A DNA stretch of 64,000 nt from Eledone cirrhosa (Eukaryota): positions 86,118,001 to 86,182,000 of the forward strand of contig OZ024742.1 of assembly GCA_964016885.1 (NCBI GenBank), given 5' to 3'. Under the pieces are notes generated by a model that worked only from the letters and a program-made list of their open reading frames with translations, ran no database searches and was not told the origin of the DNA. Positions 2,344-64,000 of this stretch are shown here, one piece after another; position 1 is the first letter of the stretch; each line of letters begins with the position of its first letter. The position numbers and the translations under genes are program-made.

Positions 2344-2405
<62 letters not shown>

Positions 2406-2460
2406 CAGTAATGGCAGTAGTAGTAATAGTAGAAGTAGTACTAGTAATAGTAGTAGTAGT
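2305..2460. repeat. (AGT)n microsatellite
   Basis: Direct reading; it produces the spurious poly-S/T/L ORFs. Confidence 0.95.
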
Positions 2461-2601
2461 ATTTGTATTAGTACTAGTTGTAGCATGACTAACAATACAA
2501 GAGAATACATAGTCGCACACACGTACACGCAAGCACACACATAAACCATATACATACATACATACATGCATACATACATACATACATACATATATATATA
2601 T

Positions 2602-2920
2602 AAAATAAGAAATTAAAAGATGATTAAAGAAGTTCTATATATTTCATTATGCGCATTTCGAAACAACATCATCCTGGGACAAGAATAGTGTTCTCATAAG
2701 GTAAAATAAGGTAACATGATATGAGGCCTAAAAACACTTGTCAACAGGAAAGTGCAAAACCTACATATTGCACTTGCCTGTTGATAAGTGTTTTTATGCC
2801 TCATACCTTATTTTATCTGATGAGAACACAATTGTTGTCCCAGGATGATGTTGTTTTCGAAATGCGCATAATAAAATATATGGAGCTTCTTCAACCATCT
2901 TTTAATTTCTTCTTGAATAT
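2602..2920. repeat. Imperfect ~320 bp palindrome of a HHR-bearing PLE-type terminus
   Basis: Arms centred near 2762 (aagtgcaa..ttgcactt). Both arms carry the HHR; the left copy has a mutated core (CUUAUGA). Confidence 0.85.
2810..2877 (+). ncRNA. Type I hammerhead ribozyme
   Basis: AUUUUAU-CUGAUGA-GAAC..GUUUUC-GAAA-UGCGCA-UA|AUAAAAU. 7-bp stem I, palindromic stem III. Confidence 0.85.
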
Positions 2921-3001
2921 ATACTCCAGTTCTACCAACTGCTGAGTGCTACTTATCTGAATTATGCATAGTTTTATTGTTCTACAACAGTACTCACCTT
3001 C

Positions 3002-3078
<77 letters not shown>

Positions 3079-3196
3079 AGTACTCATCTTTTTCCATTTC
3101 TCCGAGGGTTCTTAACCCCACCATCAGGCTAAATAATTTCTTTAATTTCTTTAGTCAAAATCCGGCAATAGCTTATATTTCTAATATATATATATA

Positions 3197-3510
3197 TATT
3201 AGTTTTGCGAGATTTTTTATATGAAAAGATGACGTAGACCTACAATATAACATGAGGAAACATAGTAGAATCACTGACGATGTTGCAGATGTGCAACGAA
3301 AGAACTGTGTTAGACTATATATATGTGTTTGTGTCTATATTAGATTTCTGTATATTTGACCGTTGGTCAATCAATGGTAACATTGAGGACCGAATACATT
3401 AAATTAACTGATATAAAAGATACAGAAGCGAAAACCAACCAAAGAGTGAGAGTGTTCTGTTATTAATTCTGGCAATATTATTACACAAATATGACCCTCC
3501 CCAAGTATAT
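3197..3510 (+). mobile_element. PLE-type 3' terminal segment with minimal HHR (core 3274-3301); second copy 8430-8745
   Basis: CUGACGA-U-GUUGCA-gaug-UGCAAC-GAAA. Ends ATGACCCTCCCCAAGTATA then TA. Stems I/III weak and the triplet is CUG here. Confidence 0.6.
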
Positions 3511-4923: not shown

Positions 4924-5710
4924 AACAAAGTCAATCTGTAAACGCAGAGCTGGATATTTCGAAAAACGTTGCAACCGGAGGAAGACAGGAAGACGATACT
5001 TTGGTTCGTGGAAACGTTCGCTGGCAAAGAACGGGAAAAAACGAATAATATGTCATTAATAGGAGCGGTGAAAAACAATTACGCGCAAAGACAGAACCAC
5101 GTTTATGGTATAAAAGAGGTCGTAGACTAATGTTCTCTTAGGTGGTGCATAGAGACATTCTCTGGCAATGAACGAAAAAACGAAGATAATAAGTCATATG
5201 TGGAGCGTGGAGAACAATAGCACGCAAAGACAGAACCACGTAAATGGTATAGCAGAAGTCGTAGACTAAAATTCTAACTAGGAGACCAAATGAATCTCTG
5301 CCACAGAGTTAAGAACAAGGTGAATAAATACAATACAGAAGTAATAGAAATAAATAAATACATACACGCAAACAAATACGTACATACACAAGAATACGCA
5401 AAACCTTACCATAAGTATACAAAACCACGCACATATAAATATGTGTGTGTATGCTTTGTACAAATAAATAAATAATTATATAAACGTATATAAGTAAATA
5501 AATACGTATATAACAAGCGCGCACACATACCTACATATAAATACACGAATGTTCGGAGACGTAAGTCAACTAAAACAAGAAGTACACATATACACACACC
5601 CAACATACGTACGAACCTGCATACTCACGCAGATACAAAACTCCCGTTTACACATAGCCAAACCCTAAATACCAGAATATAAAAATTATACGCCATAACA
5701 ATCAAATGGG

Positions 5711-6637
5711 TTGTATTACCCGTATAGAAAGCCGAATGATACGCTTAATTACATAAGTAAGCATTCCAACCATCCTTCCAGCATAACCAAGAACCTGGTA
5801 AGAAACGTTTCGTTGAGGCTTTCCCGTCTTTCCACCAACGAGCGCATTTTCAACGACCATTCCACTTATTACTATGAAGCTCTTGCTCAAAGTGGATTTG
5901 TCGATAAGGTAGCATATACAGAGTACGAAAATAGATCTAGAAGAAATAGATCCCGTCGCATTTGTTGGTTTAACCCACCATATAATATGGAGGTGGCCAC
6001 ACCATTAGCTAAGAACTTTATTTCCCTTATTACGAAGCATTTTCCCCCTACACATAAACATAGTAAAATTTTTAATAGAAACAATATTAAAATGTCTTAC
6101 TCAACGACTCCTAACCTTGCACATAACATCACAGCTTCAAATTTAGCTAAAATACCTAGCCGTAGGAACACGTGCAACCCTGTAGTTAGTACTAACTGTA
6201 ATTGTAGGAATCGGGCTGATTGTCCCCTATCCGGGAAATGCCTCTCTAGTAACATTGTCTACAAATGTAAGGTTGTAACACCCACGTCCCGTAGGGCCTA
6301 CATAGGGTTAACAGCCAATAGTTTCAAGCAGCGTCTTTACATGCATACCCATTCTTTTCGTTAACTTCTAAGAAGGAATATGACGTCACTTTCAGCTTAT
6401 ATCTGGAGTCTAAAAGACAACCACACCCAATATAAGTTACACTGGGAGATCCTAGCTAGGGCTAGATCGTATAACGGAAATAAAAGACCATGTGACCTCT
6501 GCGCCGCTGAGGCCCTGGAAATACTCTACGCCACAGACCACATCTTAAACAAAAAATCTGAGGCAATTTCGGCTTGTAAACATAAATTGCACAAAACTTT
6601 CCTGTATTACAGCCCCACGTTATACCCTAACGGATAG
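5711..6637 (+). pseudogene. PLE RT C-terminus plus GIY-YIG endonuclease (one in-frame TAA at 6362-6364)
   Basis: YRKPN..YI..SNHP, WFNPP, CNCRNRADCPLSGKC, NIVYKC..YIGLT..FKQR..H, CDLC..E..LNK. Confidence 0.92.
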
Positions 6638-12556: not shown

Positions 12557-13560
12557 AAATGATTCCGTTAGTAGAAATGGGGGAGGCAGTTATGTATGTT
12601 GAGTGAGAGGGTGGGCTGCTTAGCATGTTATGGTGTTAGAGTATTAACGTATGTTAAGGTTTATTAAGCTCTGGTTTTTATTTTCGAATATAGGTGTTAT
12701 GTGTGTGTATGTGTGTATATGTATTTTTCTGTATGTATGCTTAGCATGTTATGGTGTTAACATAATGTATAGTAAACTATATTAAGTGCTGGTCTATATT
12801 TTTGAATAAACATATTTTCCTTATTTATTCGTATTTGTTCTGTTGTATTGTCAGCGCAAAGATAACATGGGAAGACTTGGAATTTGGGTGTTATATCACT
12901 TGCGCATATGTCTAGATGTGCACTGAGTGGTATCTGTCTCGTGGTTGGGTCTCGTAATTGTTGGCGATGAATTGTCATTCTGTTTCTGAGTGTGAGTTTA
13001 GTTTGTCCTATATAATCTTCATTGCATCCTTTACATTTAATGGCATGAAGTAATATTTTGGTGAGCAAGTCAAACGATTTTTTACAACAAAATTTTGTCC
13101 TGATTGAAATATATACATGTTGCTTTCAATGAGGTGAGTGCCGGTTCCACAATTAGAGCGACCAATTTTTTCTGACAGTTGGTTGTGGGTTTGTGGTAGG
13201 TAATTTGGCATTGGTGAGTAATGATTTTAGTGATTTCGGTTGTCTTTCGCTTTTGATTATTTTGTCTGTTTCAAGGGCTTTTTTTCATTTTGGGGTATTG
13301 TTTGAATAGTGGGATGTTCTTGTGAATAATGTTGTATGCTTCCGCATTTCTCAGTTTGGTTGTGTGTTGAGATATATTATAGAATATTGGACGTACCTTG
13401 AATTTGTTTCTGTTTTCGTAATTCACCAATGTCTATTGCTTTACCCCTTTCTATTCCAATGTTTATTAGTAATGCTGGGTACTGTCTTTCGAGCAGAATT
13501 TCCTTTAATTCTTAAACTCTTTTATTTCTTTACAGCCATCATTAATTATTTTACACGCAA
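12230..13560 (-). mobile_element. Decayed PLE 3' part with CCHH-type GIY-YIG (12757-13068)
   Basis: IKCKGCNEDYIGQTKLTLRNRMTIH..PLSAH..KENMFIQKYRPALN. Frameshifted RT tail upstream; CA-rich 3' UTR. Confidence 0.85.
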
Positions 13561-27685: not shown

Positions 27686-30600
27686 AAATGGCGACCGTTG
27701 TGGTCAGTGTCCGATAATTGGACGTGTGTAATTACGGCTTACATGAAGGCAACATACCATATATTGAAAAAAGTTGAGCTACATTACGCGGTAAGATTAC
27801 ATACAATAATTCTACATAAGTGTTTGGACTGTGTGTTGTAAAACACCTATTTATATGAACGATACATACACTTATGATATATGAACGATACATACACTTT
27901 AACATATAAATGCAACGTTGTTATATTACATTTATAAAGAAATATACAAGTAACGTTTTCGATTCAGAAACAAAAATATAAGTGTTTGAACTGTGAATAT
28001 GTTGTGAATAAGTTGTAGAACACCTATTTACATGAATGATACATAAACTTTAACATATAAATACAGCGTTGTTATATTATATTACATTCATAAAGGAATA
28101 TACTAAGTAACGGTTCTTTTTGTTCTCGATTCAAACGATTCAAGAACAACGTTTAAAACACAGTTGTAGAATTAAAAACTAATTGAAAAGAAATATTACC
28201 TAAGCTGTGAATAACTTTAAATTTGATTCTGACAGAACTTTGTCGTAACTTTTAAAGAAGATCATCGACTATTTTGAAGACGAACTCATCATGGCAAAAA
28301 GTACAAGTCTCCTTCGACCAAATCGCAACTACAATCGTTGTACACAGTAGAGCTACGAGGTTAACAAAGTATTATATGAAGCATACAAACAATCTGAACC
28401 CCAAAAGTTCGGTTTTATCCAAAGGCTAAACACTTTATGGAACTCCAAACACCCAGAATTAGACTAAAGCATCTAAATGAACAGGCAAAACGTATCATTA
28501 GATGTAAATTGATACATCTAACGGAATTGAGTGATACTACAAATACAGCCCTTGTAGACAACCACCCCACCTCCACTGACAGACAAAGAGAATGGCCAGC
28601 TAAATCTAACAGTGAACAGCTCACCAACAATTTTGCTGAAACCCATCCCACTTCCACTGAAGAACAGCGAGAATGGTCAGCTAACTCTAGTAGTAATTGT
28701 CACCACATCAACAACGAGGCTGAAATTCATGACTCTACTGAACAAACAGAGCACCAAAAACTTGTGGGCACCCTACAAGTGATATGGAACGATATGTTTC
28801 AAGAGATACACAGCCTTAATGTGAGTGACAGACCATATAACACTAGAGTCAGTAAAGAACCCACTAAATTGGAATTGGAAGCGGTGAACGAAATAGCTGG
28901 CAATTATCTGAAGGCTATACGATCTAAAGGTGTAGAAACGACATTTGAAACGTTTAATGTTTTGTTATATGTTTCAGCTGTCACATTGCTATCATATAAC
29001 ACACATCTAAAACCACGCAATCAAGATACAAACAGAAAGCCTGAACCAGCGTGGATGCGAAATTTAAAAACCAAAATTGTGTCCCTGAGACGAGGTATCT
29101 CACACATCGCAGTCGTTATGAAATGCAACATAGAGAGCAACTTCCCACGACACCAGGAAGACCTAAAGAAAAAGCTAGAGAGACGATTTGGAGATACAAA
29201 ATTTAAAACTTTGAACTCCAAATTACACCAGTTGAAACAACAACTCACAGCTACAACAGAAAGACTAAAATATAAGTCAACAGCACATAAACGACAAGTG
29301 CTAAATAGATTGTTTGCCAGAGATCCTAAATCAGTTTATCGCAGCTTAGGTGGCAAAAGCTCAATCCCTGTAAACGACACCCCTTCAAAAGAACAGGTTG
29401 AGAGCTACTGGAGATCTGTATGGGAAACGGATGACGGATTCAACAGACAAGCTAATTGGCTAAAATAACTGGAACAGGACTACTGCCAACATGTCCAGAC
29501 AAAACAATATGACATAGATGGATCAATACTGGAAACAGCTCTACAGAAAATGTCGAATAGGAAATCGTCAGGCCCAGAGATCATTACAGGATACTGGTTG
29601 AAGAATTTCACTTTCTATCAGCAAGATCTCATACGGCTGTTTACAGAAACCATTAAGGGCACACAGGAACTGCCCAGATGGTTATCAACTGCCACTACTC
29701 TCCTCATTCCCAAAAATAGCCAAACCACCCTTGCTGAAAATTACCGTCCAATTGCCTGCCAAAACATCATGTATAAATGATATACTGGGTGCCTTAACCT
29801 GTTCTTACAGGATCACTGTGCTACCAACAACATCATAACACCTGAGCAAGCTGGTGGAAAGAGGGAGGTGTGGGGTTGCATAGATCACCTACTAACTAAC
29901 GAAATGATTCAGGAAAAAACAACAAAGAATCGCAGAAACATGACTGTCGTGTGGCTGGACTATCAAAAAGCATTCGATAGTGTACCTCATGGGTGGATTA
30001 TTAAGGCTTTACAGTTAGCTAAAATCCCACAACCATTGGTAGCTGGTGTTGAACGCCTGACCAAGAACTGGTACACCAATTTGATCCTTAGAGGTGAGAA
30101 GGAGCAGGTTAAGACTGATAAGATACATTACCAGAAGGGCATCTTTCAGGGTGATAGCTTGTCAGTGCTACTCTTCGTTCTCTCACTGAATCCACTATCT
30201 TACCTACTCAGGAAACAAGGTGGACAAAGAAGTGGGCCCAGAAGTATCTCCCATCTTTTCTTTGTTGATGACCTGAAGTTGTATGGGCCAAATATCAATG
30301 ATATCAAGAAACAATTGGACCTCATTACACAATTTTCAACCGACATCAAAATGAAATTTGGTGAGTCCAAGTGTGCATATTTGGCAGTAAAACGTGGAAG
30401 AGCTGTGCCCTCCTCTAGAAATCTAGAGATGAACGGCTGACAATACAACCTCTACAGTCAGGTGACAACTACAGATATCTTGGATAGGATGAGAATGTCA
30501 GATATGATGGACCCATAAATAAGGAGAGAACCAGAACTGAATACCTCAGAAGAGTAAAGAAAATATGGTCATCAGAACTGTCAGCATACAACAAATACAT

Positions 30601-31872
30601 TGCCCACAATACTTATGCTGTGCCAATTCTAACGCCAACATTTGGCCTACTGAACTGGTCATTGCAAGAACTAAGTGAGATGGATGTTAGAACTCGAAAA
30701 CTTCTCAGTGTTACTGGGAACTTTAACATCAATGGTGATGTGGATAGGCTATACTTCTCACGCTAGGAAGGTGGCCGGGGTCTAAAATCAATATTAACAA
30801 CATATGAGACCCGGATAGTAACACTGAAGCAACACCTTCAACAGAGGAAAAAAGTTGGCAACCATCTTGCCCAGGTTTAATTGCAAGAAAAAAGAAATAT
30901 CATTAGAATAGCGACTGATCTGGAGGAGAGATATGGAATAAAGCCTGATATAAATCTCTCACACAGAGAAATCGGAAGATCCTATTCAATGTTCAAACAA
31001 GATAAAAAATTGACCAATTTACAGAAAAAGTTGTGCATGGATACTTGAGGCGTAAAACACATACCATAGAGGGGATAAACCACTCAAAAAGCCTGGCATG
31101 GAGTTCCGACAAGTTTATGACATCACACCTTGAGGGATATCTCTATGCAATACAGGAACAAGAACTCCCTACCAAATATCTACTGCACAAAAGAGGAGGG
31201 CCAGCAGCTGACAATAAATGTAGGCTATGTAAAACAAAGATCGAGGATGTAAGCCACATTGTTGCCAGCTGCGAAAGAATGTCATCTCGCTACTACCTCC
31301 CAATGAGACACGATGGGATAGCTAGAACCATCTGGAACGCACTTCGGAAAACAAAATTAACAAAAAACGAGGAAGAATATATTGAGACAGATGGCACTAA
31401 GGAATACTGGTGGAACCTGAAAATAAAAAAACTGCCACCAAATTAAAGCACAACCGGCCTGATATTGTAGTTTGGGACCACTCATTGAAAACGTGTTCTG
31501 TTGTGGAGATCAGCTGCCCACTTGATGTAAACGTTGTCAGAAAAATCAGGAGAAGGAGGACATCTACGGACCATTGATGAGGAGTTTACAAATCCAGTAT
31601 CCAAGATACACCTTTAGCTTCATACCCATCATTATTGGTGCTACGGGTTATATACCAACACGCTTGGACTAAAGTATGACTGAACTTGGATTTGCGGACA
31701 AAACGCGCAGCTCCCTAATTCATAGTCTACAAATGGCTGCGATAGCTGGCACCTTCAAAATTTGCAAAACATTCTTGCGATTCAAGGGATGACAATTTCT
31801 TTTCTTTTACAACCTTGCCACCAGGAAAGTGGCTGGTCAAAAAAATATACTCGAAATTAAGAGAAAGAGAAA
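27686..31872 (+). mobile_element. Near full-length R4/Dong-clade non-LTR retrotransposon (RT + CCHC + restriction-like endonuclease), pseudogenised
   Basis: ORF ~28291-31792: NYRPIAC, DYQKAFDSV, GIFQGDSLS, FVDDLK, CRLC..E..HI..C, RHD, RPDI..VEISCP. Several stops and frameshifts; (ACAT)n at both ends. Confidence 0.92.
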
Positions 31873-36668: not shown

Positions 36669-37522
36669 CACACATACATACACATATACACACACACACA
36701 CACACACATACACACACACATACATTGATAACAATAATAATAATAATAATAATAACAACAATAATAATAACGACAACAACAATAATAATATACATATACA
36801 TATATATATACACACACACGCATACACATAAGCTTATATATACACACACACACACGATAGCAACTAACAGCTCTGCGATCGAATGTGGCTTTTTAGCCCA
36901 GCCAATGATCTAAAATGTCTTGCACAGAGTCGGTAACCAAAACATTCACTTGGAATAGTCGGCTGTGTTTGGAGTTCGTGTACTTTTGCATGTTGCTTGA
37001 GCACTCCTGCTGATTTACATTCTCTACCACATGCTTGGCAAGCATGATGAGTAGCATCTCTAACAGCAGCCTGGTAGTCAACCACTGGTCTTACTTTATG
37101 ACTTCGAAGATGACTTTCGAGTCCAGCTTTGCTTAGGCAGAGTCTCGCACAGACGCTGCATGTCAGCACCATAGGAGGACCCTCGCCGTCTGGAAGTGCA
37201 ACAGCAATGCCCTTCCTCACATCCCGCTTTACTTTCTCGTATGCGATTCGAGATGCCTCAAAGGCAACTTTTCCCTCATATACAGTCTTTCTCCATTTAT
37301 TACGATCAGCAGCAATATTTTCCCATGTATCAGCAGAGATGTTAGCGTCTTTCAGAGAGCCTTTCAAGGAATCCTTATACCTCTTTTTTGGTTTATGTGG
37401 CGGTCGTTTTCCTTTAACCAACTCTCCATAAAAGAGTTGTTTTGGTATTCTAGAATCCTTCATCCTGGCAAGGTGACCACTCCAACAGAGTCGTTGCTTA
37501 AGCACAAGAGCTTCTATACTGT
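36499..37522 (-). mobile_element. RTE-clade LINE 3' fragment with three C-terminal C2H2-type fingers; tail at 36499-36545 separated by simple repeats
   Basis: [39 protein letters not shown]; CSVC..HLRSH, CQAC..HAKVH, degenerate third finger. Confidence 0.9.
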
Positions 37523-37659: not shown

Positions 37660-37977
37660 CACACACACATATATATATATATATATACTATTAACTTACT
37701 TACTAAAATTTCACTCCCAACTAATTAGTTTCTGAAATGGAATAAATATATTTTCTGAAGAAGATATGGAGAATCATTTCGTCGTGAGGGAAGTCTATTC
37801 TCAGCTAAGTTTCCAGGCAAAGCATGGACTCTGGAAAACTTATACAAAAATAATTCAGTGGATAGAAAATAGCAAAGCGTGGACTGAATTCCTAGCCATT
37901 GAGAAAATCACTGCCTACTGCGTCGGTAGCAGATTCAAAAAGAATCAATCACGTGACATCGAGGTTAATCAGTATAT

Positions 37978-39130
37978 ATATAACTGAACAAAAAAGAAAA
38001 ACGAACACAGACATATACATATATGTGTTCAAATTGTAAGGGGCCATATTCACTAAGGTGAAGAGAATACTAACTATAGACAATAGGGTGTGCCAGACTC
38101 AATTTAAGAATAAATCAAGAAAATAATTATAAACCAGAATTTTGGTAACTACCAATCACCCGGACAGTTTTGATAATACTGTTTCGCAATATTAATTGTG
38201 AAGAGGAATACTAAATTCTTGCTCATCAGCGGGTGAGGAATTATTAGTATCCTAGTCACTTCTACGTATATAAAAAAACTGGATAATATGCGTATGTATA
38301 ACAACGCACATGGTTTCAGAACTTAGCGTGTCTTGCAGACTGATACCACTTAAAATAGCAGCCGGGTTTACTCGACATTTGAATTATCTCGACGATTTAA
38401 CGGAGCCGAAAATATCAAATTATATATTGAGTTAGAAACTCAAAATAGTCTCCTACAATAAATTAGCTCTAGCAAAGAGATTTTTACGAGCCGTATAATA
38501 TAACTGAACAAAAAAGAAAAACGAACACAGACATATACATATATGTGTTCAAATTGTAAGGGACCAGATTCGCTAAGGTGAAGAGAATACTAACTATAGA
38601 CAATAGTGTTTGCCAGACTCAATTTAAGAATAAATCAAGAAAATAATTACAAACCAGAATTGTCGTAACTACCGTTAATTTGTCGAGCTATTTCAAATGT
38701 CGAGTAAACCCGGCTGCTATTTTCAGTGGTGAGAGTCTGTGAGACACGCTAGGTTCTGATAACATGTGCGTTGTTATATATACGCACATTATCCAGTTTT
38801 ATTAATATACTTAGCAGTGACCAGGATACTAATAATTCTTCACTGCGAAACAGTATTATCAAAACTGTCCGGGTGATTGGTAGTTACCACAATTCTGGTT
38901 TGTATTTATTTTCTTGAATTACTCTTAAATTGAGTCTGGCAGACCCTATTGTCTATAGTTAGTATTCTCTTCACCTTAGCGAATCTGGTCCCTTACGATT
39001 TGAACACATATATGTATATGTCTGTGTTCGTTTTTCTTTTTTGTTCAGTCATATTATACGGCTCGGAAAAATCTCTTTCCTAGAGGTAATTTATTGTAGG
39101 AGACTATTTTCAGTTTCTACCTCAATATAT
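37978..39130. mobile_element. ORF-less HHR element: ~520 bp unit x1.3 (37978-38673) then an inverted copy (38680-39130)
   Basis: taactgaacaaaaaagaaaaacgaacac at 37981 and 38501, reverse complement at ~39025-39050. Confidence 0.88.
38156..38236 (-). ncRNA. Type I hammerhead (canonical, looped stem III)
   Basis: UCACCCG-CUGAUGA-GCAA..UUGC-GAAA-CAGU-auuaucaaa-ACUG-UC|CGGGUGA. The inverted copy at 38836-38876 lacks the core. Confidence 0.92.
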
Positions 39131-39146
39131 ACCTTTAATATATATA

Positions 39147-39225
<79 letters not shown>

Positions 39226-39434: not shown

Positions 39435-40200
39435 TTCCCTTTTGCTTTCCTTCCCTCCCTCCTCCGTTTTCCGAATAACCTATCCAGTTTTTGACGCCCT
39501 GGAGTGAGATGTCTTTTCTTTAAACCGTAGAAATATCCGAGACCCCCGGTAGACAACTGATGAGGAAAACTCCCCCCACCTCCGTTCTTGCTTTCTTCGT
39601 TACCTTAAATAGCAACTACTTAGCCATTTTTATTCTCCATGTATTTCATCATGTTTTCGCTGTGACCATTCTTCTCTCCCCTTCTACCTACCGGTTTCGC
39701 TACTTTCTACTCTTACCCGTCTTTCTTCCGCACCCTTTCTCCCTATCTATTCTTACACCACTTTCTTCCTCTTCCTTTCTCCCTCTCACTTTCGCCCCCC
39801 TCACCTGACCGTTTAGCAGTTCTCTTCTCACTTACAACTGTGGCGATCAGACGTGTGTCTTTTTTCTCTCGGCCACTCAGTCTTGATCTTAAGTTCTCTT
39901 ATCGAGTGGTCTTGGATTTCCTTACCTTAAGTTGCTCACACATTGCTCGGTTTGTTGTTTCTTACTGTTTTCTCTTGTCTTACCTTTTGCTTTCCTTCCC
40001 CTTTCCTTCGTTTTCCCAATAACGTATCCAGTTATTGACGCCCTGGGGTGATATATCTTGTCTTTGTAACGTAGAAATATCCGCCGACCTCCAGTAGAGA
40101 ACTGATAAGGAAACTCCCCCACACGCGTTCTTGCTTTATTCTTATTCCCACTGCATTTTAAGTTACCTGACATAGCGACTACACAGCCAGTTTTATTCTC
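39435..40200. repeat. Partial tandem repeat, period ~550 bp (39435-39640 / 39982-40200), pyrimidine-rich, in (TA)n
   Basis: tttgctttccttccc..tatccagtt..ttgacgccctgg..gtagaaatatccg..aactgat is repeated. Confidence 0.8.
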
Positions 40201-44277: not shown

Positions 44278-44789
44278 GGAGGAAGTTATAGTTCACTTGA
44301 AGCATTGTGTAATGAGGTATAAACGTTTGTATATGTATAATAAAGCCAAAACAATGTAGGTATGGACATAGAATAAAGAATGCAAATGCAAAAGATATTG
44401 TTGACAATTAGTATTTTACCTTAGATTTATTTAAATGTCCTTAATTTTCGAGATAATATCTTTTCTTCGGAGGTAAGTAAAGCGGTTAAACCAGTGTTCT
44501 AAATCATGCCAAGTCATGCTGACAGGAAATGGTATATAGTATCTGTTCTATCTCTAATATCAAAGAGTTAAGGTTAGGTGGATAAAGAGTAGTCTCCTTT
44601 TAAAAGGGTTTGTTTTGTACATGCCTGTTTAAGTGTGTGGGAGAATGCGTGAAGGTGTAAGTATGTGTGTGTGTGTGTGTGAGTGTGAGAACATATGTAT
44701 ATACGTAAATGTGGGGGATAGATGTGATCTCGTGTTAGAACTGGTCTTTGTATGTATGTGTGTGAGAGAGAATAAGTGGCGGTGTAAGC

Positions 44790-44849
<60 letters not shown>

Positions 44850-45880
44850 GCGTGTGTGTGTGCGTGTGTTTGGGAGGGGGTGTAAATATGGGGCTAGATG
44901 CTCTATCAAGTTATATGTCGTTGATGGGGCAGTTGGCTAGCCTGCAGCGGTTGTCATGCTTGGTGGAGTGTCTTTTGGACAACTGCTGCAGGCTAGCCAA
45001 CTGCCCTATCAACGACACAGACATATGCCACCAGGCTTACGTCGTATACAGACTAGAGTGCGACAAATGCAGCAACTTCTACGTAGGTAGCATCACCAAT
45101 CCACTCCACATAAGAATAAAAGAACACCTCCATACTAACGCTTCATCATTTAAGAAACACCTAGTTAAATGCAAAAACACCGACAAAACAATAACAGTTA
45201 GGATAGAAAGTAAGGAAAGAAACCCCGGCAATCTTAGAATTAAGGAAGCACTAATTATAGACAAAACATTAATACCAATCAATAATAGACTAGAACTCAA
45301 CACCCAATTTATAACTTAATAGACCATCTAGCCCCATATTTACACCCCCAACCACACACACGGACACACACACACGCACGCACACACACACATACACACA
45401 TACACGCTTACACCTCCACTTAATTTTCTTTCACACACACACATACACAGACCAGTTCTAACACGAGATAACATCTACCACCCACATTTACGTATAGACA
45501 TATCTTCTCACACTCACACACACACACACACACATACTTACACCTTCACGCATTCTCCCACACACTTAAACAGGCATGTACGAACAAAACAAAAAAATGT
45601 TAAAAGGAGACTATTCTTTATCCAACTAACCTTAACTCTTTGACATTAGAGATAGAACAGATACTCTATACCATTTCCTGTCAGCATGTCTTGGCAAGCT
45701 ATTTAGAACACTGGTTTAACCGCTTTACTTCCCTCCGAAGAAGAGATATTATCTCGAAAATTAAGGACATTTAAATAAATGTAAAGTAAAAGACTAATTG
45801 TCAATTATATCTTTTGCATTTGCATTCTTTATTCTATGTCCATACCTGCATTGTTTTGGCTTTATTATACATATACAAAC

Positions 45881-46554: not shown

Positions 46555-49500
46555 AGGGGATGTGAGAGAGAAAGAAATGGAGTAAGGGATGAGATAGAAA
46601 GAGAGACAGTGGGAGATGGGAGAGAGAATAAGGGGATGTGAGATAGAAAGAAAGAGAGTAAGGGAAAACTTCCAGCGTTGTTAACTTTTATTTATTTATA
46701 ATTTTTACACAATGTTTAACTCTCCCGCTTCTTTAACGTTATCTATCTTTTCTTTATTTGTGTTCCCTATTCTGTAGAGAGAGGGGGGGGTCTGATAGAG
46801 AAAGAGAGAGAATAATAGGATGGGAGAGAGAGAAAGGGAAAGTAGCCCGCGTTCATTAACTTTTATTTATTTATTATTTTTACACACTTCTTAACTCTCC
46901 CGATGTTATTTATCTTCTATTTATTTTTTGTTCGCTATTCTAGAGAGGATGAGAGAGAGAAACAAAGAGAGGGGATGAGAAAGAGAAAGGGAGTGAGGTG
47001 GATGGGGAGAGAAAGACAATAAAAAAGAGAAAATAAGTCTAAAGAAATCACAGATGCTTTTATAGAAGTTGTATATATGTATGTATTTAACAGAAATAAA
47101 AAACGGTTTTTTTAAAAGATATTATTTGAATATATTATTTTCCGCTTTTATTTGAATTACCTCAGAAAATATTTTTTTTTGTAGTGTTTATCGTTTTTTA
47201 TTGGGGTATTACAAATGATAATTTCAGAATACAATCGGAAATCCCAATATTTTCTACTTATGTCTAAATTTAATTACACCTAATAAACATTCATATAAAG
47301 AGATCATTTAAAACAACTTTACTGAGTGAATAATACCTTCTATAATTTCGGAAAGAGTGTGGCGTGTAATAATTGTTTCTACCTTTGGCACAAGGCCAGC
47401 AATTAATCCAGTGCATTACTGGTACTTTATTTTGTCGTGTGGTGTGTAATAATATCACTTCACATGCCTAGAAAACGTTCCAGATCATTATATGGAAGGT
47501 CATCTTCAGAGGCTAAGAGAAAGAAAACACAGCGACCTGAAGAAAGTGAAGAAGTTCGGCGTGACCGTCTAGCTGCTAACAGAGCCCAAATAGCTTTAGC
47601 ACGAGCACACTGTTTGGATGAAAGGGAACAAAGGATTGCTGCTACACGAGAACAACAAATTAAGGAACAGCAGCAAATCAGACGAAATGCTAATCAAGCA
47701 CATCGTTCTACTGCCCGAACAGGAGAAAAATCCACAAGTAAAATGAACTGGCTGATGGGTGCTTTTTCTTATGACCCCCAAAAGGACTCCAGCAGTAATA
47801 TACAAACCAACATGGGGAAAATGAAGAGATGCTGCCAGTATTGTGGGGCCAAGAAGTGGGCAGCAGAAAAATCAAGTCTATGCTGCTCAAAAGGCAAAGT
47901 GAGCCTTAAAACTATACAAGAACCTCCTGAATTTCTGAAGAATGTGCTACTTCAGCATACACCAGAAAGCACGACATTTCCATAAATACATCATAAAATA
48001 TAATTCTGCCTTTCAAATGATATCTTTTGGGGCTGACAGGAATGTGACTGACATTAGATTCTGTACAACTTATACAATTCAGGGACAGTGTTACCACTTA
48101 ATGGGTCGCCTTCTGCCACTTTCACAGGAGCCTCACAAATTTGTGCAGGATTACTTCATGGGTGTAAATGAAATACAGGCATAACAAAGATGTACCAATG
48201 TCCATGGTGGATTGCAGTTCCACATAGTCATAAAGTTACAAGAAATGCTTCACCAACATCACATGTACGTCATTGTATTTAAATATGCACTGAAGTATAT
48301 GAACAACACCAGAGATCGTAAAATCATCATTAGGGCAGACAAACGCCCAGCTTCAGAACATGAATGCAGATTCAATGAACCTGTCACTGATGAAGTTGCA
48401 ATTATAATGGTTGATGAACAGTATGAACGACGTAACAATGTTTTTAAAAACGAAGTGGACATTCGGTGCGAATTTGTGAAACTCATAGAGCCTATGATTC
48501 ACTCCAATATCCGCTCATCTTTTGGAATGGTCAATATGGATATGATTTTCAGCTACGGCAGATCAGCCCAGAAACGGGACAAGAAAATGGCCGATCAATC
48601 AGCTGCAAATAATTCTATGCTTAACATTTCATGGTACGTGATCACTTCAACCAAGTTCTGCGATTCAGCCAGTTCATGGTGGACATGTATGCCAAACTTG
48701 AAACAGAAAGATTGTTTCCTGCGAAGGAATCAAACTAAGTTGAGGGCAGATAACTACTTCCACCTTAGAGATGCCATCAATTCTGATGTTGACCCAAGAA
48801 ATATTGGCCGGCCAGTCATATTACCATCAAGTTTCACGGGAGGACCACGTTACATGCATGAACGTACGCAAGATGCAATGGCCTATATCATAAAATTTGG
48901 CCGGCCAGATCTCTTCATTACATTTACATGCAATTCAAACTGGTCAGAAATATCAAATGAATTATTTCAAAATCAAAAAAACCAAAGGATCGACATGACC
49001 TCATTGCTCGGATTTCCCATGAAAAGCAAAAAAAAAAAAATCATCTGGAGAAAGAATATTGGTGAGCTTAGTGCTTGGATGACCACTATTGAGTGGCAGA
49101 CGAGAGGTCTTCCTCACTCTCACATTAATCTGGTGCAAGGAGAAGATAAGACCAGATGATGTTGATACGATCATTTCAGCTGAGTTGCCTGATAAAAGTG
49201 GTGATCCAGAGATCTTTGAAACCATCAAGTCCAAACTCATTCTTGGTCCATGTGGAGTCATCAATAATGGATACCCCCTTTATCGTAGGGGTAGAACAGA
49301 ACATGGAGGCAATAATGCAAGCCTTACAATTCGAGGAGTGGAGCTGACCATAAACAATCAGTGGATCGTCCCACACAACAAATTGTTGTGTAAACTTTTA
49401 AAACTCATATCATATGTTGAGTATTGCAGCTCTGTCAAGGCAATCCTATATGTCCTAAAATATATCAACAAGGGCAGTGACATGGCTACCTTTATTAATG

Positions 49501-49920
49501 ACAAAGAACTCAATGGTGGTGGGCTGGATGAGGTCAAACGGTATCAAACAGGTCGTTACATCTCCAGCAATGAAGCTATCTGGCGAACCTTTGGATTTGA
49601 TATCCATCAATGCCACCCAACAGTGGTCTCAATTCATCTGGAAAATGGACAGAGAGTGTACTTCACTGAGTTCACTGCTCATCAGTTGGCACAAGCATCA
49701 CATGACACTACACTAACTGATTACTTTAAACTCTGCCAGAATGATGAATTTGCTCAATCCCTCCTATATGCTGAAGTTCCAACATACTACAAGGACCAAT
49801 TGCAAGACCAATTGCAAGACCTGGAATCGAGGAAATCAGGGTCATTTAGTGGAAGGTCATGAAGTCAAATCAAGTGATGCTATTGGGCGTGTTTACAATG
49901 TCCATCCCAACAACATTTCA
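46163..49920 (+). mobile_element. Helitron, 3'-truncated (Zn finger + Rep HUH/Y2; no helicase seen), frameshifted
   Basis: 5' A|TCTATATATATATAAA; CQYCGA..CC..GKV, YNSAFQM, IQGQCYH, LPSSFTGGPRYM, PDLFITFTCN, IEWQTRGLPHSH, YVLKYINKGSD. Confidence 0.92.
47371..47437 (-). mobile_element. 3' fragment of the tRNA-SINE inside the Helitron
   Basis: Reverse complement of 60692-60757. Confidence 0.8.
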
Positions 49921-54650: not shown

Positions 54651-54984
54651 AATTATTATTATTATTATTATTGAATGCCATGGTCGACGTAGACTCGGCT
54701 CTGTAAGGTATTGTAAATGTTAACCGCTATAACAATTGTAAATTGTTTAAAACTTTAACCAAATTGTAGACAAAAACACCCTCCTCCTCGTGCGAGGGGT
54801 CTTTCTGCCCGTTATTTGGCCTTTCGGGGTTAAATAACCGCTTGCTGAGGTTTTGTGCCCTATATTTATTTTAAACCAAAAAAAAACATTGCTACAGAAA
54901 ATAATTTTAACAATTTTCCACGACGACGACAACGACGAAAAGGGTGTGCGGTAAATACGAAAACCCATTTCATTCGTCTGACGT

Positions 54985-55107
54985 CATGAACAATAGCAGT
55001 AGCAGTCGTAATAACAGCAGCAGCAGCAGCAACAGTGACAAGGAAAACAACAGTAGCAGCCGCAACAGCATCAGCAGCAGCATAAACAACAACAGCATTA
55101 GCAGCAA

Positions 55108-55139
<32 letters not shown>

Positions 55140-56509
55140 ACAACAACATCAACAGCGGCGGCGGCAGTCGTAGTACCAGCAGCAACAACAAAAGTAACAG
55201 CAGCTCTGACGACGAAAACAACAACAAAGAAACAACAATCTCGTTTGCAGGTATCGCAAAGGACCTGGAAAACATCCTTATAACAAATGAGGAATTACAG
55301 GAAGCAAAGAGGATGGTGACGAAAAACGGACACCGAGCAATCTGCAAGGCAGCCGAAACATTTTTCGAAACCCAAAAGCACTGTACGGTCACGTACCGTA
55401 CAGTAAGCACAAAACCCCGTAGGGTTGAAAGGGCCACAAAGGTTAAAATACAAAAAGCCTTAGGGTCTGTGTGGCAGCGGAAAACGCATATCACCCGAGG
55501 CAAGAAATATGCCACCGTGGACGTGCTTTTTGCCACACCCCGGGAGGCAAAGGCTCAATCCTTAGCGACCCTAAGGAGCGAGGAAATGTTGTTGGTGCCC
55601 TCCTACTGCGGAAAAGAATGTGAGGGTCAACTGACCCACGGACACCGGGATGGCCCCTTCTTGGCTGGCCGCGTCTCTCCTGGTCAGAATCGAGGAAAAA
55701 CAACAGTACTGCATGTACAGAAAAAAGTACGAGAAGATTGGGTCGGCACCTCCATTGAGATGTTAATCCAAACCAACCAGGAGTGCATCGAAGCTATCCC
55801 GGATGTGATATATTTCGATAACGCCACTCAACTGCCCATAAGTGTTGATGGCAAACGCCCGAAATGCTTTCGCTGTGGATCGAAGACTCACCTCAAGGCC
55901 TTCTGCAATGAGAACACCCTGAGAAAGGAGAAAACCCCCCTCCTTCCGAAACCGGCTCCACTGCTACCAGCAACAGGACAGGCGGCAACCAGGAAGGATA
56001 GGTCCGTGGCACCCATACCCACGCCACGGATATCAAGAACAGCAGCAGCAGTGGAAGTATTAACAACAACAGCTGCAATACCAACTGCAGAGACTCCACT
56101 GTAAACATCACCAACAACAACAAGTGAAAGAGTGGAGCTGGTACTCCTCTCCGACCTCACAGAATCGGACATGGAGTGTGAGGTGGGAGAGGGATGGCAA
56201 AAGGTCGCAAGAAGGCACAAACGCAGAAGCAGCGCATCGCCGCCTCCAAAAAGGGAGGAAAGAAACGAAAAAAGGGTAAACGCTACTTCAAAAATACTTA
56301 CAGCAGCAACACCACCAACACGATCACCACCCACACTAGCACCACCATCACCACCGGCGGCAACCCCACCGCCAACAACAGCATCACCATCAACACCACC
56401 ACCACAAGCACCAACATCGCAAACACAACAAAACACACACACCCAGCAACAACGACAAGAAAGTAGCAGAACCACACTCACCCCCAGTAAAACAAATGCA
56501 CAGCAATAA
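54985..56509 (+). pseudogene. ORF1 gag-like protein with CCHC-type knuckle and low-complexity termini
   Basis: ISVDGKRPKCFRCGSKTHLKAFC; GWQKVARR. Stop at 56102 and a probable frameshift. Confidence 0.75.
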
Positions 56510-56876
56510 ATACACACAACAAGAAATTAACGGCTTACATAATTGAACACACATACATTTCACAGCACGACTATAACATACCAGCACCAATGAAAACACC
56601 AACGAACATAAGACTGGTAAAAATAGCATAGAAGCAATACACAAACATTAAAACGAAATTCCCCAACGCAGTTGGTGATTACAGAGACCTAGGAGGGACA
56701 CTCAACCGGAGGGTATATTCGAATATACTCACGGAAGAGCCCACGACCAGCCGAAAGGGCGATTCAACGGTCCCTTCACCTGATGATCAAGTGAAAAGGC
56801 ATGGTGAAACATATCCTTCCTCTGCGAGAAGAGGTAAGGTAAGTGGTCTTTCCCATCTTTTCCACTACATTTCAAC

Positions 56877-59800
56877 ATGACCTCACTCAGAATAGGCAGC
56901 ATAAATGCGTGTGGCTTGGGGTCGTCATGGAAGCAGGGTCACCTGCTCAACGACCTCAGGTCACTAAACATAGATGTAGTGGCCATCAGCGAGCACGGGC
57001 CTTCGCGCCGATCTTCGGCGGCTACGATGTGTACGCAGCTCTCAGCCGTCCTGGATCGGGGGGTGGAGTTACTGTGCTTTTTTGGAGAGGTTTGGATCTC
57101 GCCATACGGGACATCTTCTTGGACCCAGAAGGTAAGTTGGCGGTGCTGGACGTGACCAGCGGAGAAGGGCAAGCTTTCAGGCTAGTGGCCGTCTATGCCC
57201 CGACAGGAGTAGGGCGGCCTGATTTCTTCGGCGTGTGGAGACTTTTCTAGGAACGTCCCGCTCTTTAGTGTTAGTGGGCGCCTGGAACGGTATCTTAGAT
57301 GCACGATGGGACTGTGTGGGATTAGCGGATAGGGGAGGAAGGTGCAAGAGCCTCACCAACCTGCTCAGGCGTTTTGAACTGTCTGACAGGTACCGATTGG
57401 ATTTCCCGAATGTGCCAATGTGGACTTGGAGAAATCGCATAGGGTCATCCAGATCATATCTAGATAGAGTAGTTTGTAACGAAATAGATAGGTCTAGCAT
57501 AAGCTGTCCAATATTCAAGATAGTCAGCTACACGGACCACACATTCGTGATCTGTATGCTTGACTTAGATGGGCTTCATAGACGAGGACACGGCTACTGG
57601 AAGCTAAACGCGTCCTTACCAGCGTGCAAGGCCTACAGAGACCGGATTAGCGATCTAGTTAAGCGAGTGTTGACAGGGGCCATCGTCAACAACAAGTGGT
57701 GGTTTGCTCTGAAAAGAGCGATTAGAATAGAGTCCATTAGGTTTAGTAAGGCTTTAGCTATAGAGAAACATAGAGCAGAGGGAGAACTAGTTAGAAAATT
57801 AGACGAGGCGCTTAGCAAAGGCAACGCTACCGACGTACTTGCAGCGAAATTGGCCCTTGTCCAATTCTTCAATGCAAAGCAAGAAGGCTGCATTGTCAGA
57901 GCTAGGGTGCGTGCTCTCAGACACGAGGGGACGAAAGCCGTTCAATTGGTCCGAGTAGCGGAGGCGCGTCGTGGCAACAAAGCCACGATCCGGTCTTTGG
58001 TGGACCACGGCGGGCGCATGCTACTCGATCCCGGGAAAATGTGTGAAGGTTTTCAGCGACACTTTGCTCAACTGTTCGGGGGAAGCCCCGGGCCTGATCG
58101 AGGGATTTACTTTAGTGTCTACATCGACGGACTGCCGCGGCTCTCGGCCACTGAGGCGGAGTGTTGCGAAAAGCCGATAACAACCGCTGAAGTACGGGAG
58201 GCAATGACTGGCTGCACAAGGGGTAAATCGCCTGGTTTGGATGGTCTGCCTATGAACTTTACGTACAAATGCCAGACTTGTTCGGAGGCCTCTTGGCGGA
58301 CGTCTACTGCAACTGGCAACAGAACGGGAGAATTCCCAGCTCTGTGAGCCGAGGAGCGGTGGCGCTGCTGAGAAAGGATCCGAATAAGGGGGATAACGTA
58401 GATAATTTCAGGCCAATAACTCTGCTAAACACAGAGTTCCAGATTTTGGCCAAGGTGCTAGCAAAGAGTTTTGCGCTTGTCATTGGTGCTATGGTGTGAG
58501 AGGCGCAGACATGCGCCATTCCCGACAGATCCATCCACGACAACCTCCACCTCATGCGATAGATCGTAGAGAGGGTCGCTAGGGAAGCTGGCACGGGTGG
58601 GTCCTTGATCAATTTAGATCAGCCGAAAGCTTTCGATACGGTCGAACATCGTTACCTAGCGGCAGTCCTGAGGGCGGCTGGCTTTGGGCCCGTCTTCAGA
58701 GGCTGGATCGCTGCCATGCACAGCGAAATCTGCTCTGTGGTGAGAGTGAACAGTCACCTTTCGGAAACGTTCAAATCATGCGCTCGGTCACCCAAGGATG
58801 TCCCCTCTCGTCCCTCTTGTACGTATTGACTCTCGAGCCATTACTGCACAAACTGGAGACGTTGAGGGGCGTCCCGCGCGAACTAGGATGCGGAAGATCC
58901 GTGTCAGCATATGCGGACGATGTCACTGTAGTGGTGTCGAACGCCAAACACATCGAGGCGATCGGCACTACACTAAGAGAATACAAAGCGGTGACAGGAG
59001 CAATGATCAACCACGAAAAGTCAGTGGGCCTGCAGCTCGGCACCTGGAGAGGAAGGTCCATGCCGTCCAACAGCGTGGTCGGAAGCTGGACGGACGGACC
59101 GCTTAAATTGCTAGGGGTCTGGTTCGGTCCGGATCTCCAGACTAACAAAAACTGGGACGAGTTGAGCAGGGTGGCTTCTGTCACGCAGAAATAGGCGGAG
59201 CGGAAGCTATCACTGAAAGGTCGAGCGCAGGTAGCTGACGCGTACATTGCGCGTCTGTCATCTGCTACCGCCCGACCGTCGTGCCTTGTCCTAAGCCCCG
59301 CCTGACTGCGCTGGAGCGTTTGCTCTTTCGCTTTTTGTGGAAGGAACGCGCTCCGATGCTCAGGCGGTGCATCTGTTGTCAACACCCGCTACGTGGAGGG
59401 CTGGGCATGCCGTGGCTGATGATGCGCAGACACGCGCTCAGGCTACGACATATCCACCTCTTCCTCGACGGTGATCAGGTGTGGTCGCCGTTTGCTAGAC
59501 ACGTCATTCCCCAGCTCGTTTCCTTGACCTGCTGCAGTCCTGGGTCAAGCGAAGACAGAGAGGGAGCGCTTGGAGACTGGAATGTATTCAAGCCCTCACA
59601 GCCCTCGAGCAATCGGGCAATATGATCGGTGGAAACTCCACTTCGGCATTCTATCAGGATTAGTGGAGGGGAAGATTGACGACGTACTTGGGGAAACTCT
59701 AGGCGTCGATGAAAATCAACTAGCCAATCTCTTCGGAAGAACTTTCGGGCCGGGGCCTATGGACAACTACCAGAAATCCCTGGCCTAGCAGTGCTACCGA

Positions 59801-60273
59801 TGAGCCTTGCCAGTTCGGGATAAACTCTACAGGCATGGAGGTGCCGTCAGCGGGCATGTCCGAGATGCGCGCACGGCGACGAAACCGTCCTGCACGCACT
59901 CGTCCAGTGTCCGAGAATTGCTGACTTGTGGGTTTATGTCGAACACCTGCTGTCGCGTGTAGGACGGATGCGGCTATCAGCTGAGTACATCGTGAGGATT
60001 GCCCCGCCCTCTGCCTTTAGCCGGGAAGGGCAGGCAGTTTTTATCTGTCTGGTGGCCATGGCGAAAGACGTAGTATGGTGGACACGTTTGAAAGGGCTGA
60101 AGACGAGCACTTACCTCTTCAGTGATGCCCTGATTGACTTTTTCAAATTTCATTTGAAAAGGAAAATCAGAGTAGAGAGGGAAGTGCTCTCTTCCCAGCA
60201 TTTTGTTGAAAGTTGGGTGAGAGAAGCAAGAATGGCCCGAGTGAATGGGTTTACTCTGAGTATGTGTCTGTAA
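56877..60273 (+). pseudogene. ORF2 APE endonuclease + RT + CCHC
   Basis: GSINACGL, DVVAISE, VYAP, SYLDR, TDH, YWKLN, KSPGLDGLP, NFRPITLLN, QGCPLS, AYADD, CPRC..ET..H..C. Multiple lesions. Confidence 0.92.
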
Positions 60274-63274: not shown

Positions 63275-64000
63275 TGTACATCCGCATATGTATACTGAAA
63301 TACTAGTATGCATATGAATACACACACGTATACATATGTAGATGTACCAAGTCTTTCACTGCTTACTTTACTGTGAGTATCCAGCTATTATGTATGTAAA
63401 CACACAGACAAACCGGTTTTTAGAGTCATACTGGTTTTTGAGGAAACACCTTTCCTCTATTCTCCAGAAAGCCAGACAAGGAATATTGAACTAGTTTCGT
63501 TGTTGTTACAACTCATCAGCAATATTTACCTATCTACCGGCCTTTCTGGAGAATCGTAAAAGCACATATCGTTATATGCTTTTTCTATGAAAATTAGTAG
63601 TGGGCAGACTAATTTGCATAGAGTGTGAGTAAGTACCGGTTCAACGGAGACGATAAAAACAAATAACGAAACGACTACTAATTTTCATAGAAAAAGCATA
63701 TAACGATATGTGCTTTTACGATTCTCCAGAAAGGCCGGTAGATAGGTAAATATTGCTGATGAGTTGTAACAACAACGAAACTAGTTCAATATTCCTTGTC
63801 TGGCTTTCTGGAGAATAGAGGAAAGGTGTTTCCTCAAAAACCAGTATGACTCTAAAAACCGGTTTGTCTGTGTGTTTACATACATAATAGCTGGATACTC
63901 ACATTAAAGTAACCAGTGAAAGACTTGGTACATCTACATATGTATACGTGTGTGTATTTATATGCATACTAGTATTTCAGTATACATATGCGGATGTACA
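63275..64000. repeat. Young inverted repeat, arms 63275-63601 / 63674-64000+, 72-bp spacer
   Basis: About 3 mismatches seen in 327 bp; the right arm reaches the window edge. Confidence 0.95.
63749..63793 (+). ncRNA. Type I hammerhead (canonical); identical mirror copy 63482-63526 (-)
   Basis: AAUAUUG-CUGAUGA-GUUGU-aaca-ACAAC-GAAA-CUAG-UU|CAAUAUU. Confidence 0.92.

What the first reader, a model, noticed from the sequence alone, without database searches (positions are those of the whole stretch)
37978..39130. 520-nt unit x1.3 plus an inverted, permuted copy; ribozyme core deleted in one arm
Seen: module order A-B-C-A then inverted B-A-C, so the inverted arm reads C-A-B, a circular permutation of the unit. 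The HHR at 38156-38236 is canonical (7-bp stem I, GUC). The inverted arm lacks the core through a deletion at a short c(c/t)tcac microhomology. Inference: permuted arms suggest a circular or concatemeric template.
Basis: partly seen in the sequence, partly recalled or inferred. Interest (0 to 1): 0.72.

Follow-up and report, generated by a model that had tools for sequence, protein, structure and literature searches.

The report
Ribozyme repeat twin-primed by Penelope enzyme
This is one aged copy of an abundant, protein-free 520-base repeat carrying a hammerhead-ribozyme motif; its mirror-image copies end at two fixed points just before two small predicted hairpins shared with a Penelope-type jumping gene in the same genome, whose enzyme likely pasted it in, probably from an RNA circle, as long proposed for animal 'retrozymes'.

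Summary
Observation confirmed: a 520-nt unit x1.35 on the minus strand, a canonical type I hammerhead (cut 38164/38163) and a head-to-head inverted arm (38672-39141). The core deletion is private to this locus (1 of 87 passes), and the claimed microhomology explains only 35 of its 44 nt. The permutation itself does not show a circle. Genome-wide (>=819 exact end matches), outer ends sit at two fixed unit positions, S (~190) and L (~272), in TA tracts. Inverted pairs were S+L in 49 of 62 L-anchored loci, never L+L. Each end lies just before a CGGCUC...GAGCU hairpin, and the same pair marks the ends of an 844-aa Hydra-type Penelope element, the likely mobiliser. Of 180 arms, 77 read across the ribozyme cut and 31 exceed one unit, with no long master array found: this favours a circle (~55%). 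None crossed twice (about 14 expected), which keeps linear templates alive. No RNA data. New member of the non-LTR retrozymes; this scan already reported the same footprint, twin hairpins and Hydra link on other DNA of this genome.

The parts
37973..38673 (-). Sense arm, about 700 nt = 1.35 units; 3' end at the S site (unit 186-191, position 1 = first base after the ribozyme cut), 5' end at unit 11
   Evidence: 6.9% substitutions from the family majority
38156..38237 (-). Canonical type I hammerhead motif; predicted cut between 38164 and 38163 after GUC
   Evidence: compensatory pairs across copies
38465..38493 (-). First (S) hairpin CGGCUC...GAGCU, internal pass; upper stem mutated in this copy
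38385..38408 (-). Second (L) hairpin, internal pass; one change in the 3' strand in this copy
38672..38673 (.). Head-to-head junction of the two arms, 2 shared bases
38672..39141 (+). Inverted arm, 470 nt covering 512 unit positions (281 round to 272); 3' end at the L site
   Evidence: 5.8% substitutions from majority
38843..38844 (+). Private 44-nt deletion of the hammerhead core in the inverted arm
39060..39141 (+). One-sided 'tail' (unit 191-272), the stretch between the two fixed ends
37973..37982 (.). Left (TA)n target remnant, overlapping the arm's own TA-like end
39138..39221 (.). Right (TA)n target tract

Best explanation
This is an aged insertion of a non-coding 520-nt hammerhead repeat (a non-LTR retrozyme) whose two back-to-back arms were likely made by a Hydra-type Penelope reverse transcriptase-endonuclease priming one RNA, probably a ribozyme-made circle, from both cut strands of a TA tract. 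Shown: thousands of dispersed candidates, two fixed outer ends paired one of each kind, TA flanks, variable inner ends joined by 0-8 shared bases, a hairpin just past each end, the same hairpin pair at the ends of an 844-aa Penelope element. Inferred: rare loci with two ribozymes release a monomer that a host ligase would close; the enzyme, as a dimer, would bind the two hairpins, nick both strands of (TA)n, pair each 3' end with the AUAU just upstream of one hairpin, copy backwards across the ligated cut, and the two cDNAs would be joined at their 3' ends. Odds: Penelope-type twin priming 0.9; Hydra clade as mobiliser 0.75; this 844-aa family or a close ancestor 0.5; closed circle as main template of long arms 0.55.
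For: End pairing: 38 S+L, 0 S+S, 0 L+L among 59 two-armed loci of 77 (21 had one or both ends elsewhere); L-anchored sample of 98: partner S 49, other 13, none found 36, L 0; S-anchored 30: L 22, other 4, none 4, S 0. TA run within 30 nt at 34 of 45 S ends and 51 of 67 L ends against 12% background. A 560-nt sister family repeats the rule: 12 of 15 two-armed loci S+L, none same+same. Double-hairpin pattern: 93 genomic hits, 0 in the reversed control, made up of this family, one sister-like copy and one unrelated family with an 844-aa RT + GIY-YIG ORF and its own hammerhead; 29 of 30 of its sampled arms end at S or L and 6 of 6 inverted pairs are S+L. Ribozyme under selection: stem I pair G-C 53 / A-U 51 of 118 passes, stem III U-A 51 / C-G 48 of 129. 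Arms of one locus agree at subfamily-diagnostic sites: 282 of 317 inverted, 59 of 64 direct, 51% between loci. For a circle: 77 of 180 arms cross the cut and 31 exceed 520 nt; an arm's own end lacks the hairpins, so a linear daughter must be at least 438 nt shorter than its parent, yet the longest arrays found are 1272 and then at most 946 nt; 0 of 98 chains copy a parent's inversion junction; about 5 of about 164 crossings carry an indel at the cut; differences between passes are unpolarised, 200 against 215. PAc protein cuts and extends both strands from two internal starts flanking the tail (PMC11167929).
Against: No arm of 180 crosses the cut twice, about 14 expected at constant stopping rate; the longest L and S arms (766, 679 nt) stop at nearly the same unit position (~27-31), as a linear 5' end would cause. 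Stops pile up at unit 100-145 (51 of 180, p=1e-5), possibly a transcript start. Some loci carry the same ribozyme-damaging change in both passes (L021 core, L002 stem I). PAc used uncut RNA and needed no active ribozyme in vitro. The hairpin's lower stem is invariant, so it shows no covariation; only the upper stems differ while still pairing. One 844-aa locus has L at both ends (L238). The partner shares no alignable DNA with the unit beyond the motifs, and its best copies are 99% alike while this family is 5-12% diverged. Searches scored only 40 candidates each, and assemblies can collapse tandem arrays.
Confidence: 0.6

Rival explanations
1. Same Penelope-type twin priming, but the template is a linear, uncut read-through RNA from a few tandem master loci; the ribozyme is idle during insertion and no circle is needed.
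For: Ceiling on arm length at one unit position and 0 of 180 double crossings; shared ribozyme damage in both passes of L021 and L002; uncut RNA was the main substrate for PAc (PMC11167929); the 844-aa element itself forms seamless 5-kb tandems.
Against: Needs parents of 960-1350 nt or more for the 31 of 180 arms over one unit; only one such array was seen in two long-query searches of 40 candidates each. About 16 arms in the length-selected sets do cross twice. Compensatory changes show that source copies kept an active fold.
Confidence: 0.27
2. The template is the cut linear monomer; the enzyme jumps from its 5' end to the 3' end of the same or another monomer, which mimics a circle.
For: Four stray segment ends at unit 508-518 and two internal jumps landing at 508 and 518; mild excess of stops just after the cut (13 of 86 in 1-35, p=0.007; 23 of 180 in 1-45, p=0.06).
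Against: About 97% of about 164 crossings are seamless; stops within 514-12 are 14 of 276, p=0.09.
Confidence: 0.1
3. The locus is a truncated end (pLTR) of a coding Penelope element, rearranged locally by fold-back or recombination.
For: Partial tandem plus inverted copy plus tail is the standard PLE layout (PMC8557442).
Against: The unit closes on itself in all mapped loci, has no stop-free stretch over 68 aa, matches no sampled coding PLE, and reads show no common loose end inside it among the rows listed. Fixed S/L ends at hundreds of sites cannot come from local rearrangement.
Confidence: 0.03

Closest known systems
Metazoan non-LTR retrozymes (Cervera and de la Pena 2020, PMC7229834; Li, Clavereau and Pollet, bioRxiv 10.64898/2026.07.22.740005)
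   Same: Non-coding, AT-rich repeat unit with a canonical type I hammerhead, many copies, dimers present, co-existing with PLEs; both papers propose PLEs as mobilisers.
   Different: 520 nt against about 170-400 nt in the 2020 paper (51-972 nt in the preprint); mostly dispersed sub-dimer arms in inverted pairs rather than arrays; link to the PLE is a shared pair of hairpins and end geometry, not pLTR homology; circles not shown here.
Insertion structure of endonuclease-bearing Penelope-like elements (PMC8557442; PMC3846280) and PAc internal initiation (PMC11167929)
   Same: Partial tandem, inverted 5'-truncated copy, tail on one end only, AT-rich targets, two fixed internal starts that bound the tail.
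   Different: No ORF; tail 82 nt against 30-40; near-strict one-of-each pairing quantified; both starts precede a duplicated hairpin, whereas PAc has one described AC-rich stem-loop. Arkhipova 2013 explained inversions by self-priming on an antisense template.
Hydra clade of C-terminal-endonuclease PLEs (PMC8557442, section 11)
   Same: The 844-aa partner has RW(R), DK(A), CxCX5C, CxxC and CxH motifs, a hammerhead and (TA)n targets.
   Different: The finding itself is non-coding; the partner's unit is about 5 kb against 'generally <3 kb'; no tree was built.
LINE-1 twin priming (recalled; PMC2837659 seen in a search listing only)
   Same: Both target strands prime cDNA; inverted product joined by short microhomology.
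   Different: L1 arms do not overlap and the second start is variable; here both starts are fixed and the arms overlap.

Membership tests
Non-LTR retrozyme | Canonical type I hammerhead in the unit | tested here: met
   (motifs and compensatory pairs); Rfam models do not score it
Non-LTR retrozyme | Non-coding short unit, low GC | tested here: met
   longest stop-free stretch 68 aa; region about 35% GC
Non-LTR retrozyme | Head-to-tail repeats with two consecutive complete ribozymes | tested here: met
   Family level: 9 of 98 loci examined hold two passes in one arm, 5 with both cores intact by motif. This locus has one intact ribozyme only.
Non-LTR retrozyme | Self-cleavage of the transcript | not testable with these tools
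   sequence and fold only
Non-LTR retrozyme | Accumulation of monomeric circular RNA | not testable with these tools
   indirect genomic argument only
Penelope-like element insertion | Partial tandem plus inverted 5'-truncated copy | tested here: met
Penelope-like element insertion | Tail at one end between two fixed ends | tested here: met
Penelope-like element insertion | AT-rich or (TA)n target | tested here: met
Penelope-like element insertion | Target-site duplication | tested here: inconclusive
   cannot be read inside TA tracts
Autonomous PLE | RT + GIY-YIG ORF | tested here: not met
   none in the unit; present in the 844-aa partner
Hydra clade (844-aa partner) | RWK, DKT, CxCX5C, CxxC, CxH motifs | tested here: met
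   read by eye: RWR, DKA, CNCRRASGC, CNLC, CPH; 44% identical over the RT to a 713-aa family with DKT
Hydra clade (844-aa partner) | Placement in the Hydra clade by RT phylogeny; absence of CCHH | not tested
   no reference Hydra proteins fetched; Pfam gave no hit

The most novel reading that the evidence does not exclude
One ribozyme-made 520-nt RNA circle is held by a Hydra Penelope enzyme dimer at two matching hairpins and copied twice, once from each strand of the cut TA target; the 844-aa element found here is its carrier. This would name a retrozyme-PLE pair by shared cis signal, explain the one-sided Penelope tail and inversion in one mechanism, and give a two-component system for writing circular RNA into DNA.
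Probability: 0.35. Interest if true: 0.68.

Novelty: new member of a known kind. Interest (0 to 1): 0.4.

Why it matters
Retrozyme mobilisation by Penelope enzymes is proposed in print but not shown, and the origin of Penelope's inverted ends and one-sided tail is open. This family gives a counted rule (one S end, one L end), a candidate RNA signal and a candidate enzyme with intact 844-aa copies, so the question can be tested with the published PAc-type assay. The locus itself is an old, decayed copy, and the scan has already noted the same picture for other families of this genome.

Tried and rejected
Rfam: no hammerhead hit at gathering or E<=5. Sequencing runs: no RNA holder listed; three runs of unknown kind from one sample, contigs only, so nothing on expression. 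Partner search by homology: the very abundant 713-aa PLE (67209 candidates, 12 loci fetched) and 30 GIY-YIG loci in six clusters share no DNA with the unit; one loose hairpin-like match near the 713-aa start was not followed up. Three diverged relatives beside one GIY-YIG family proved to be separate insertions in its TA tract; flanks showed no preferred PLE neighbour (19 of 136 hit any, several families). A genome-wide count of two-ribozyme dimers was not obtained; a 1267-nt DNA query stood in. Microhomology deletion as a family feature: rejected. Polarised inheritance from a tandem master: not seen. Template-jump scars at the cut: weak (its de-duplication kept only 146 loci and dropped loci that shared a 40-nt end). 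Five paper searches showed no paper on twin start hairpins or strict end pairing; subscription journals and all supplements were not seen.

Full report
Observation. The repeats are as described. Window 37978-38153 recurs at 38498-38673 (period 520, 95%), and 38672-39141 is an inverted arm reading C-A-B. A type I hammerhead lies on the minus strand at 38237-38156 with a 7-bp stem I and GUC; Rfam does not score it. I number the unit in RNA sense from the first base after the predicted cut (38163 = 1). The sense arm then runs 11 to 191 over 702 nt and the inverted arm 281 to 272; they meet head to head with 2 shared bases. The arms are 5.8% and 6.9% from the family majority, so the copy is old. 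The inverted arm lacks 44 nt of the ribozyme.

The family. The 3.0-Gb genome gives 2370-3474 candidates for unit queries and 819 exact matches to one end motif. The unit has no stop-free stretch over 68 aa and folds better than shuffles (z -2.7; -3.4 as a circle). Two subfamilies differ by compensatory pairs in ribozyme stems I and III. Earlier scan notes call the animal a cephalopod; I did not test that.

Fixed ends. Outer ends are RNA 3' ends at two positions, S (~186-191) and L (~272). Of 77 distinct loci from three score-ranked searches (13 duplicates dropped), 59 had two opposed arms: 38 S+L, 16 L+other, 3 S+other, 2 other+other, none S+S or L+L. To avoid ranking bias I took 98 loci from the first 100 listed L-end matches: partner S 49, other 13, no opposed arm found 36, L 0; and 30 of 97 S-end matches: L 22, other 4, none 4, S 0. 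Ends abut TA runs (34 of 45 S, 51 of 67 L; 12% background). Inner ends fall all round the unit, mostly with 0-8 shared bases; 10 of 54 junctions are nearly symmetric, at palindromes. A 560-nt sister family follows the same rule at homologous positions, 12 of 15. This is the Penelope footprint: partial tandem, inverted copy, tail on one end (PMC8557442 passages; PMC3846280 passages). For PAc, both strands are cut and extended, and two internal starts bound the tail (PMC11167929 parts 1-2 of 4).

Start signal and carrier. Each end lies a few bases before a predicted hairpin CGGCUC...GAGCU with a 2-nt bulge, in this family, the sister and a third relative. A pattern for the pair gave 93 hits, 0 in the control; besides this family (and one sister-like copy) it retrieved an unrelated 5-kb unit with an 844-aa ORF right after the second hairpin and a hammerhead about 60 nt before the first. 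The protein has RT and GIY-YIG motifs and the Hydra marks of PMC8557442 section 11, read by eye; Pfam gave nothing. Its arms end at the same offsets: 13 S, 16 L, 1 through of 30; 6 of 6 inverted pairs are S+L; one other locus is L+L (L238). The lower stem never varies, so structure rests on folding and on the differing upper stems.

One template. Arms of one locus agree at diagnostic sites in 282 of 317 cases (inverted) and 59 of 64 (direct) against 51% between loci. Successive subfamily activity or gene conversion could add to this.

Circle or not. Of 180 simple arms in the unranked samples, 77 cross the cut, 31 exceed 520 nt and none crosses twice. An arm's own 3' end stops before its hairpin, so a usable linear transcript must take the hairpins from an internal pass, and its daughters are at least 438 nt shorter than the parent. 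Arms of 520-914 nt would need parents of 960-1350 nt; two long-query searches found one array of 1272 nt and nothing else above 946. No chain of 98 copies a parent's inversion, differences between passes are unpolarised, and about 97% of crossings are seamless. Nine loci hold two ribozymes in one arm and could release a monomer. Against: about 14 double crossings were expected at constant rate; the longest S and L arms stop at the same place; stops cluster at 100-145; two loci share ribozyme damage in both passes. The stopping rate rises for both arm types near the second pass of unit ~280, which fits an obstacle at the L start on one circle but also limited parents. I put the closed circle at about 0.55, uncut tandem RNA at about 0.3, jumping between cut monomers at about 0.1.

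Known and new. Non-LTR retrozymes, their circles and PLEs as proposed carriers are in PMC7229834 (passages, parts 3-4 of 6) and bioRxiv 10.64898/2026.07.22.740005 (parts 1-3 of 5). Five searches showed no paper on twin start hairpins or strict pairing; supplements were not read, and Craig's Hydra files may hold the partner. Within this scan the footprint, hairpins and Hydra link were reported for many other families; no note matched this unit by sequence. Verdict: real, a new member of a known kind, with a testable mechanism; interest 0.4.

Noticed in passing
G000 C1:331456000-331465900 (L228:5759-8290) and L223-L268: Young Hydra-type Penelope family: 5-kb unit, intact 844-aa ORFs with an Asn/Gly-rich insert between RT and endonuclease, seamless tandems of three or more units, copies 99% alike.
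   Followed up: partly
L133-L162 (e.g. G000 C5:125291018-125292018): 560-nt sister repeat, 3526 candidates, 90-98% alike, same S/L rule; its hammerhead core reads UUGAUAA with a long stem III, so it may spread with a changed or dead ribozyme.
   Followed up: partly
window 5699-6364; L091-L102: Fragment of a 713-aa Penelope family with 67209 candidates in the genome, many intact ORFs; my scans found no hammerhead inside its unit.
   Followed up: partly
window 2817, 21457, 39297, 63519/63756: Further minimal hammerhead motifs of other repeats; the pair at 63519 (-) and 63756 (+) forms a small inverted insertion.
   Followed up: no
window 39435-40200: Diverged direct repeat of period about 544 (80-85%) with CTGATGA/CTGATAA-like motifs, next to the finding but unrelated to it.
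   Followed up: no
L105, L123, L130: Diverged relatives of the unit sit in the TA tract at the 3' end of one GIY-YIG family in 3 of 15 loci, all with the L end facing that element.
   Followed up: partly
unit 100-145 across loci: Strong cluster of inner ends (51 of 180), many at a palindrome; a transcript start or a fold-back site.
   Followed up: partly
window 12757-13125, 44633-45319, 36864-37520, 28398-31446, 47407-49862, 54911-60273: Fragments of other mobile elements: two GIY-YIG pieces, a zinc-finger LINE end (RTE-like, label recalled), an RT-bearing LINE, a Helitron and a long LINE-like region.
   Followed up: no
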